This document shows, piece after piece, positions 15,615-16,047 of a stretch of DNA of 64,000 nucleotides; within the stretch, counting starts at the first letter, position 1, and each line of letters begins with the position of its first letter. Both the position numbers and the translations under genes were made by a program. This stretch comes from Mobula hypostoma (lineage: Eukaryota), in assembly GCF_963921235.1 (NCBI RefSeq), contig NC_086108.1, forward strand, positions 92,134,001-92,198,000, written 5' to 3'. Below the pieces are notes generated by a model. The model was not told the origin of the DNA and ran no database searches. It was given only the letters and a program-made list of their open reading frames with translations.

Positions 15615-16047
15615 TCAATCAGTGGGTGCCGTCCCAAATCCGGGGTTGGCAGCTATGCACCTCCATCTTCTTCGATCTTGTGACAGCACCGAGTACAGCC
15701 TCTCCTCCAGTTTGTTCTCGTTGGCTGCCTTGGCACCGCCCGCCACTGCCACCGCCAAACTCGAGCCTGAGGCCGTGTCGGTCTCCAGCCGCGGCCGCTT
15801 CTTCGAGTTCGGCCCTTCCTTAGGCGGAGGCCTTGGGCAGGTCCAGGCACACGGCACAGCACCCAAGTTCATCATCTCTCTTCTAACTAAGTGCATAGCA
15901 TACGATTCGTAGATACGTGGTAAGGCTTTAATCTCTTCCACAGAAGATGGCCGTTGGCTCACAAGGAGCTCATCCGCCCTTTGTCAGGTCTTGGTTTTTT
16001 TTTAGTCCTGCTGGGTGTCCTCACACCCTCCTCACCAGACTAAGTCT
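15615..16047 (-). mobile_element. Non-autonomous RTE-derived retroposon carrying a captured gene fragment
   Basis: TSD GGAAAG at 15609-15614 and 16048-16053; 3' end encodes RTE C-terminal (A)QDRRRWRCIAANP..; 5' part resembles an RTE 5' UTR. Confidence 0.75.
15683..15862 (-). pseudogene. ZFTRAF1: Circularly permuted fragment of the ZFTRAF1/CYHR1 5' coding region
   Basis: Block 15862-15825 = [12 protein letters not shown]; block 15824-15683 = PKEGPNSKKRPRLE...[10 protein letters not shown]; the order recalled for vertebrate ZFTRAF1 is KKR...[25 protein letters not shown]. Confidence 0.85.

What the first reader, a model, noticed from the sequence alone, without database searches (positions are those of the whole stretch)
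15683..15862. Circularly permuted ZFTRAF1/CYHR1 coding fragment: footprint of a ~178-nt circular intermediate integrated into a retroposon
Seen: a GC/CpG-rich 180-nt island on the - strand reads GTGCTGTGCC...GCCTCCG ([12 protein letters not shown]) and then CCTAAG...TCGGTGCTGT (PKEGPNSKKRPRLE...[10 protein letters not shown]). Its two ends overlap by GT and rejoin as TCG GTG CTG TGC TGT GCC (SVLCCA). Removing it restores the host RTE frame exactly (TTG G|CA CAA GAT = LAQD). Recalled knowledge: vertebrate ZFTRAF1 has KKR...[25 protein letters not shown], so the order here is swapped. Inference: a 178-nt circle was opened at a new point and inserted. The size is about one nucleosome and the source is a GC-rich 5' exon, both typical of microDNA/eccDNA. 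A small circular RNA or RT template jumps are alternatives.
Basis: partly seen in the sequence, partly recalled or inferred. Interest (0 to 1): 0.92.

Follow-up and report, generated by a model that had tools for sequence, protein, structure and literature searches.

The report
Permuted host exon inside RTE retroposon
A 178-base piece of the host gene ZFTRAF1, with its two halves swapped exactly, forms the middle of a short jumping element present in about 800 or more copies in this cartilaginous-fish genome, so it records one old capture, probably from RNA, and not an insertion at this spot.

Summary
The permutation is real. Window 15683-15860 (178 nt) is an exact circular permutation of part of ZFTRAF1/CYHR1 coding exon 1, and one parental locus has the normal order. 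It is not a one-off insertion. It is the fixed middle of a ~570-nt non-autonomous retroposon with at least 798 copies: RTE-type LINE 5' end, permuted piece, LINE 3' end. It replaces ~2.9 kb of the LINE, so the 'restored LAQD frame' is wrong (the LINE reads KRAQD), and the 'GT overlap' is CpG decay in this copy. The mechanism is open. I favour capture from RNA by reverse-transcriptase template jumps (0.5): sense, exonic, ending 4 nt before the splice donor, opened at a hairpin apex. Rivals are a nucleosome-sized DNA circle (0.3) and back-splicing (0.1). The family's 5' end is a fold-back hairpin with 7 of 12 adenines changed to G against 0 of 55 elsewhere, which looks like ADAR hyper-editing fixed in the germline. 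The scan reported this family before from other copies; the notes shown to me did not mention the edited head or the hairpin-apex opening. No read-level evidence was obtained.

The parts
15615..16047 (-). One 5'-truncated copy (433 nt) of the non-autonomous RTE-derived retroposon family (about 570 nt at full length)
   Evidence: aligns to family positions 113-542, 2.5% non-CpG divergence
15861..16047 (-). LINE 5' part (leader and first codons MHLVRR...), with the 7-nt deletion of the donor sublineage and a family-specific 10-nt deletion; the fold-back head is missing from this copy
15821..15860 (-). Block B, 40 nt: downstream part of the ZFTRAF1 exon-1 piece; ends 4 nt before the exon-1 splice donor in the parent (G000:C5:228091006-228091045)
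   Evidence: 39/40 identical at family level
15683..15820 (-). Block A, 138 nt: upstream part of the ZFTRAF1 exon-1 piece (parent G000:C5:228091046-228091183); its end abuts the start of block B in the parent
   Evidence: 136/138 identical at family level
15615..15682 (-). LINE 3' end (QDRRRWRCIAANPGFGTAPTD, stop) and (TGAC)n tail
   Evidence: insert-free LINE 3' ends differ by 2.2% (non-CpG) from the family tail
15609..15614 (+). Target-site duplication GGAAAG, copy 1
16048..16053 (+). Target-site duplication GGAAAG, copy 2
15230..16255 (+). A different LINE 3' fragment into which this copy inserted (FLGHIMRK | DEQEKLVL); limits approximate; RTE-like by recalled motifs only
   Evidence: translation; no Pfam match

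Best explanation
Shown: a non-autonomous retroposon family of about 570 nt, built as [fold-back head] + [first ~225 nt of a 3.2-kb endonuclease/RT LINE] + [178-nt exactly permuted piece of ZFTRAF1 exon 1] + [last 65 nt of the LINE and (TGAC)n tail]. It arose once and spread to at least ~800 copies. Inferred with high confidence: it spreads by target-primed reverse transcription, using the protein of the parent LINE. Inferred at about even odds: the capture happened on RNA. The LINE's reverse transcriptase copied its own 3' end and jumped onto the free 3' end of a ZFTRAF1 exon-1 RNA fragment cut in a hairpin loop (block A). It copied to that fragment's 5' end, jumped to the 3' end of the neighbouring fragment (block B, still held by the hairpin stem and ending just short of the splice donor), ran off at the same cut, and jumped back to the LINE's 5' part. 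One process thus yields both the internal deletion and the permutation. A covalent RNA circle nicked once gives the same product and is not distinguished here. The RNA from which the family descends also carried a 5' fold-back hairpin that was hyper-edited A-to-I (inferred) before it was copied.
For: Family; duplications of 6 bp or more in 21 of 46 copies, varied 5' truncation, shared tail; full-length partner LINE with endonuclease and RT domains. RNA-leaning clues: the piece is wholly exonic, in the sense of the LINE, and ends 4 nt before the exon-1 donor. The opening point is the centre of a 6-nt loop on a 6-bp stem; 6 of 178 possible opening points score as well, and the stem has pair probability 0.81-0.87 in folds of the linear 5'UTR+exon 1 RNA. 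No microhomology at the closure. Serial end-to-end template jumping with 0-2 bp of pairing is shown in vitro for the R2 RT (PMC8594491, passages), and double jumps are inferred in vivo for LINE chimeras (PMC2104539, abstract). Editing: against the nearest LINE copy (L082), 7 of 12 A in the two hairpin arms are G and 0 of 55 elsewhere in the 5' part (Fisher p about 1e-6, post hoc); the full hairpin has 16 G-U against 4 A-U pairs; edited head 123 matches, unedited head 1 match, and that one is an insert-free LINE copy.
Against: 178 nt falls in the mononucleosome class (175-185 bp) of germline eccDNA, which is enriched in 5' GC-rich regions, and about two thirds of such circles lack perfect microhomology (PMC10581685, passages); the lack of microhomology therefore does not separate RNA from DNA. 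Three jumps with no untemplated base retained are needed, whereas the R2 RT often adds bases. All RNA-leaning clues were noticed after the fact, among several features examined. The apex hairpin is weak in the folded circle (about 0.19) and weaker in shorter windows (0.55, 0.19). The editing shows an RNA stage in the family's history, which every retroposon has; it does not show how the exon piece was captured, and the insert itself has no A>G change (differences T>A, G>A, T>C). The 46 copies analysed were chosen by similarity or exact junction match, not at random.
Confidence: 0.5

Rival explanations
1. A 178-bp extrachromosomal DNA circle (microDNA) from the exon-1 CpG island was opened at one point and captured in the founder, either as filler during repair of a break that deleted the LINE's interior or as a DNA template for the RT.
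For: Size matches the ~180-bp germline eccDNA peak, with 5'UTR and high-GC enrichment (PMC10581685, passages). The source lies in a ~700-bp CpG island. Exact unit length follows directly from a circle opened once (PMC7188851, part 1 of 4 read). The R2 RT also jumps onto DNA templates.
Against: It leaves as coincidences the sense orientation, the end 4 nt before the donor and the opening at a hairpin apex (6 of 178 positions). It needs lossless opening plus a simultaneous ~2.9-kb deletion that spares both functional LINE ends. No empty two-part precursor was found and no precursor with the 10-nt deletion that continues as LINE (2 matches, both of the insert type).
Confidence: 0.3
2. A back-spliced circRNA (exon-1 donor joined to an exon-internal AG, 180 nt, 60 codons in frame with no stop) was reverse transcribed once round and then lost 2 nt at the junction in the founder.
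For: The junction lies within 4 nt of the donor, and restoring 2 nt gives a donor-to-AG joint with a 3-nt match and exactly 180 nt. Precedent: 33 circRFWD2 pseudogenes in mouse (PMC4897178).
Against: All 100 junctions listed of 402 have the 178-type spacing. The acceptor would be GAG with a pyrimidine fraction of 0.45, while a better CAG (0.75) lies 24 nt upstream. That GAG acceptors and first-exon circles are rare is recalled knowledge.
Confidence: 0.1
3. No circle and no RNA: a local tandem duplication, or two adjacent DNA fragments joined in swapped order during repair, supplied the B-A junction.
For: A tandem duplication also makes an end-to-start junction. Two junctions may show a 3-nt match displaced by 1-2 nt: the internal one, and the left one if L082 represents the donor (1 of 4 LINE copies).
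Against: The parent shows one copy in normal order; in the 50 kb fetched the element matches only exon 1, as two abutting blocks. From a duplication, exact unit length would be a coincidence.
Confidence: 0.08
4. Assembly chimera or chance resemblance.
For: None.
Against: 402 exact junction matches, control 0; 175/178 identity to the parent; target-site duplications.
Confidence: 0.01

Closest known systems
Bipartite non-autonomous RTE LINEs / SIDEs (RTE-N2_Lch: 5' 214 bp + 3' 70 bp of RTE-4_Lch; Bov-A; R2Dwi_SIDE). PMC5786205 passages; PMC3414825 passages
   Same: Keeps only the two ends of its LINE (~225 nt and 65 nt), with microsatellite tail, target-site duplications and a partner LINE in the same genome. 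R2Dwi_SIDE also has a foreign 197-bp middle, of unknown source.
   Different: The middle is an identifiable host coding-exon piece, exactly permuted, and the 5' end has an added fold-back hairpin with clustered A>G changes.
circRNA-derived pseudogenes (33 circRFWD2 copies in mouse, LTR-rich flanks). PMC4897178, part 1 of 2 read, covering the main text
   Same: Non-colinear gene piece, multi-copy, associated with a retroelement. The paper itself notes that RT passing across structured open-ended RNA could mimic such junctions.
   Different: There the junction is a canonical exon 6-exon 2 back-splice. Here it lies inside a first exon and is 2 nt short of a splice joint; the unit is exactly one turn; the carrier is a non-LTR element with ~800 copies.
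SVA_F1 (MAST2) and the chimpanzee STK40-SVA subfamily.
   Same: A host first exon became a fixed part of an amplifying non-autonomous retroposon subfamily.
   Different: Those were joined by splicing, colinear and at the 5' end. This one is internal, permuted and not at splice sites.
eccDNA-mediated duplications with swapped block order. PMC7188851, part 1 of 4; germline microDNA, PMC10581685 passages
   Same: Same AB-to-BA signature; size equals the ~180-bp germline circle peak.
   Different: The duplications screened there are segmental (over 1 kb by definition) and not carried inside a retroposon.
Tripartite LINE template-switch chimeras. PMC2104539, abstract
   Same: Several templates fused in one insertion by the LINE RT.
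   Different: Those fuse different transcripts in single loci; here two adjacent pieces of one exon are swapped and the product stayed mobile.

Membership tests
Bipartite non-autonomous LINE (SIDE) | 5' and 3' ends of an autonomous LINE, interior deleted | tested here: met
   both ends match a 3.23-kb LINE; ~2.9 kb missing
Bipartite non-autonomous LINE (SIDE) | Dispersed copies with retroposition hallmarks (tail, target-site duplications, 5' truncation) | tested here: met
   799 matches including the parent; duplications of 6 bp or more in 21 of 46 copies; 23 of 46 reach the head
Bipartite non-autonomous LINE (SIDE) | Partner LINE with endonuclease and RT, same 3' end | tested here: met
   Pfam Exo_endo_phos 5.6e-11 and RVT_1 1.6e-15 in L077; 2.2% non-CpG difference at the tail
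Bipartite non-autonomous LINE (SIDE) | No foreign middle (pure internal deletion) | tested here: not met
   178 nt of host exon fill the gap; no empty form found
RTE clade (partner LINE) | RT phylogeny groups with RTE | not tested
   label rests on architecture (3.2 kb, endonuclease then RT, short tail) and on recalled C-terminal motifs
RTE clade (partner LINE) | 5' HDV-like ribozyme (in several RTE families) | tested here: inconclusive
   Rfam scan of L011 and L077 gave only 2 chance-level matches
circRNA-derived pseudogene | Non-colinear order of gene sequence | tested here: met
circRNA-derived pseudogene | Junction is a donor-to-acceptor back-splice joint | tested here: not met
   2 nt short of such a joint in 100 of 100 listed junctions (402 found); weak acceptor
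circRNA-derived pseudogene | Matching circRNA is expressed | not testable with these tools
   no read-level result obtained
microDNA/eccDNA re-integrant | Nucleosome-sized unit from a GC-rich 5' region | tested here: met
   178 nt; CpG island
microDNA/eccDNA re-integrant | Microhomology at the parental ends | tested here: inconclusive
   0 nt for the 178-nt unit, 3 nt for a 180-nt reading; most germline circles also lack a perfect match
microDNA/eccDNA re-integrant | Direct insertion into a genomic site recoverable as an empty allele | tested here: not met
   no empty site; flanks are the two LINE ends
SVA_F1-type spliced exon capture | Host exon joined colinearly at its splice donor | tested here: not met
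   piece ends 4 nt before the donor and is permuted
ADAR hyper-edited RNA copy | Clustered A>G on both arms of a long duplex, absent outside it | tested here: met
   7 of 12 against 0 of 55; 16 G-U and 4 A-U pairs
ADAR hyper-edited RNA copy | Unedited template locus with the perfect hairpin | tested here: inconclusive
   only an insert-free LINE copy without the fold-back was found; source of the inner arm not found in 12 loci

The most novel reading that the evidence does not exclude
A vertebrate LINE reverse transcriptase copied a small circular or once-nicked host nucleic acid exactly one turn into its own RNA copy and so founded a new mobile family. The RNA that founded the family also carried an ADAR hyper-edited fold-back hairpin, which became fixed in the germline and was inherited by some 800 copies, possibly because G-U pairs let a long hairpin escape double-stranded-RNA surveillance. 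One element would then record both germline capture of a sub-200-nt circle and heritable RNA editing.
Probability: 0.35. Interest if true: 0.8.

Novelty: new variant of a known kind. Interest (0 to 1): 0.62.

Why it matters
It is a clean natural record of how a short retroposon can acquire a foreign middle, the part of SINEs whose origin is usually untraceable. Here the donor exon, the donor LINE sublineage and all three junctions can be read at base level. It is either a rare germline re-integration of a nucleosome-sized circle or an in vivo case of serial template jumping by a LINE enzyme, and the two can be told apart by experiment. The A>G cluster in the head suggests that RNA editing was written back into the germline and amplified. 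Practical point: ~800 copies of a permuted exon will mimic ZFTRAF1 circRNA or eccDNA junction reads in this species, and could yield antisense or small RNAs against the gene (not tested).

Tried and rejected
Single local insertion: rejected. Empty 'LAQD' host: 0 matches (exact with a 0-4 base gap, up to 3 mismatches). Two-part precursor or a precursor with the 10-nt deletion that continues as LINE: none seen (13 matches, read from the listing only; 2 matches, insert type). Full-length LINE with the family's head: 0 matches. 180-nt junction variant: none in the 100 listed of 402; 302 were not shown. Surviving unedited founder: the single candidate is an insert-free LINE copy. A parent-like older subfamily: T at the internal diagnostic base in only 4 of 46 copies, near the upper range of non-CpG C>T noise; not pursued. 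The 4-bp inverted repeat flanking the circle ends (0.8% of 27,694 comparable segments) pairs only in the shortest fold and not in three longer ones, so it is not used as evidence. Rfam: nothing above chance. Pfam on the window translations: nothing at threshold. Source of the head's inner arm: not found. Downstream ZFTRAF1 exons: not within the 50 kb fetched, so gene identity rests on exon 1. Sequencing runs: 24 listed, no RNA holder listed; no read-level result was obtained, so expression, back-splice reads and spread across species stay open. In one search one of nine long copies (L036) was mis-anchored; one search repeats that step correctly. Literature: searches listed no paper on this family or on an A-to-I-edited retroposon founder. 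One search is a weak test (12 of 5,683 listed), and Repbase, Dfam and most subscription papers were not searchable, so absence from print is not established. No supplements were read.

Full report
1. Observation. The island is real: 66% GC and 15 CpG, the highest in the window. A pattern for the two blocks in normal order matches once in the 3.48-Gb assembly, control 0. That locus is a 327-nt coding exon from ATG to a GT donor. Its protein has 76 hits at E<=0.001 among 8000 scored candidates, led by ZFTRAF1/CYHR1 of sawfish, skates and catshark, so the genome is probably a batoid or close relative. The majority sequence of 46 copies matches the parent at 136/138 (block A) and 39/40 (block B), and block A's last base and block B's first base are neighbours in the parent. 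The insert is window 15683-15860. The 50 kb around the parent hold no duplicate.

2. It is a family. A DNA search gave 929 first-look candidates; the 40 scored were all 91-100% identical over nearly the full length. All 15 loci opened had the same flanking element. The permuted junction matches exactly at 402 places and an insert motif at 799 places with up to 3 mismatches, the parent included; both controls were 0. Copies differ from their majority by 2.9% at non-CpG and 17.6% at CpG sites; 21 of 46 show duplications of 6 bp or more, and 23 of 46 reach the 5' head. These 46 were picked by similarity or exact junction match, so divergence may be understated. The window copy is 5'-truncated, lies between GGAAAG duplications at 15609 and 16048, and interrupts another LINE fragment on the + strand.

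3. The 'GT overlap' is C in 34 and T in 9 of 43 copies, as expected from CpG decay, and 4 of 4 LINE copies supply that GC themselves. The 'LAQD' empty site was not found. The 314 insert-free 3' ends (control 4) read KRAQD; 24 of 25 opened continue upstream as LINE. Two are full-length, about 3.23 kb, with endonuclease and RT domains. The family's left flank is this LINE's first ~225 nt and its right flank the last 65 nt. The exon piece replaces ~2.9 kb. No empty two-part precursor turned up. The RTE label rests on architecture and recalled motifs, not on a tree.

4. Junctions. The closure of the 178-nt unit has no microhomology; it ends 4 nt before the donor, and adding 2 nt would give a 180-nt donor-to-AG joint with a 3-nt match. 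All 100 junctions listed of 402 are of the 178 type, and the acceptor would be a GAG with a poor pyrimidine tract. The opening point is the centre of a 6-nt loop on a 6-bp stem; 6 of 178 positions do as well by stem length and 5 of 178 by energy. The stem pairs at 0.81-0.87 in the linear 5'UTR+exon RNA, 0.55 and 0.19 in shorter windows, and weakly in the circle. The nearest LINE copy, alone of four, offers a displaced 3-nt match at the left junction; one copy cannot settle this.

5. The head. Head-bearing copies start with a strong hairpin (z -4.2 against base shuffles); 9 of 24 extend 26 nt further, giving a stem with 36 G-C, 16 G-U and 4 A-U pairs. The outer arms are the LINE's 5' end and its inverted copy. 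With the family's 7-nt deletion as marker, the G-rich head matches 123 times and the A-rich head once. That one locus, L082, is an insert-free LINE copy of the donor sublineage. Against it, 7 of 12 A in the arms are G (7 of 8 substitutions) and 0 of 55 elsewhere (Fisher p about 1e-6, post hoc). This fits A-to-I hyper-editing of a double-stranded RNA that was then reverse transcribed (inference). For the inner arm there is no outside reference, so C>T cannot be excluded there. The editing does not date or explain the exon capture.

6. Mechanism. Shown: family, parts, exact permutation. Inferred: mobilisation by the partner LINE. Open: the capture. I give 0.5 to RT template jumps over a cut exon-1 RNA (linear and held by the hairpin, or a nicked circle), because one process explains deletion and permutation and because the piece is sense, exonic, ends near the donor and opens at a loop apex. 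End-to-end serial jumping is documented for the R2 RT (PMC8594491, passages) and double jumps for LINE chimeras (PMC2104539, abstract). I give 0.3 to a DNA minicircle: the size and source fit germline eccDNA, two thirds of which lack perfect microhomology (PMC10581685, passages). Back-splicing with a later 2-nt loss gets 0.1 and other DNA shuffles 0.08. The RNA clues are post hoc, and no read-level evidence was obtained.

7. Comparison. It works like a bipartite non-autonomous LINE (PMC5786205, passages; PMC3414825, passages) and meets those features except for the foreign middle. It resembles circRNA-derived pseudogenes (PMC4897178, part 1 of 2) but fails the back-splice test, and SVA_F1-type exon capture (PMC6139936, abstract) but is neither spliced nor colinear. 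The swapped order is the signature of circle-mediated duplication (PMC7188851, part 1 of 4). Searches listed no account of this family; repeat databases were not available.

8. Earlier notes. The scan has reported this family from at least eight other copies (a sequence look-up found nothing). I had reached the same reading before opening them; they gave the SVA_F1 lead. The few lines shown did not mention the edited head, the hairpin-apex opening or the donor sublineage.

9. Verdict. Real, and a new variant of known kinds: a bipartite LINE derivative with an exactly permuted host exon piece and an apparently hyper-edited head. Interest 0.62.

Noticed in passing
family 5' end, e.g. L003, L010, L022, L026, L029, L036, L043, L044, L047 (absent from the window copy): A fold-back hairpin of more than 50 bp: an inverted copy of the LINE's 5' end plus an inner arm of unknown source, with A>G changes on both arms (7 of 12 A against 0 of 55). 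9 of 24 head-bearing copies carry the full outer arm.
   Followed up: yes
window 15615-15983 (-) and family majority sequence: An open frame of 93 codons runs from the LINE's ATG through the permuted insert to the LINE's own stop; block A is read in the ZFTRAF1 frame. Chance or selection not tested.
   Followed up: no
L082 (G000:C2:11765600-11767100) and L078: These two LINE copies share about 95 nt of leader upstream of the point where the family and L077 begin, so the LINE's true 5' end is longer than 3.23 kb suggests.
   Followed up: partly
L079 and L081: Two LINE copies with 5' inversions of the twin-priming type.
   Followed up: no
L009: Two family copies lie in opposite orientation under 1 kb apart, a possible source of double-stranded RNA with ZFTRAF1 sequence.
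   Followed up: no
window 15230-16255 (+): The window copy sits inside another LINE 3' fragment with an (AGAC)n tail: a nested insertion.
   Followed up: partly
window 10100-10729, 12068-12568, 17108-17479, 21879-22850: Other mobile-element frames: LINE RT fragments and a Tc1-like transposase fragment, named from recalled motifs in the translations.
   Followed up: no
G000:C5:228056000-228091002: No further ZFTRAF1 exon within 35 kb downstream of exon 1 by tblastn with a batoid relative, so intron 1 is probably longer than that.
   Followed up: partly
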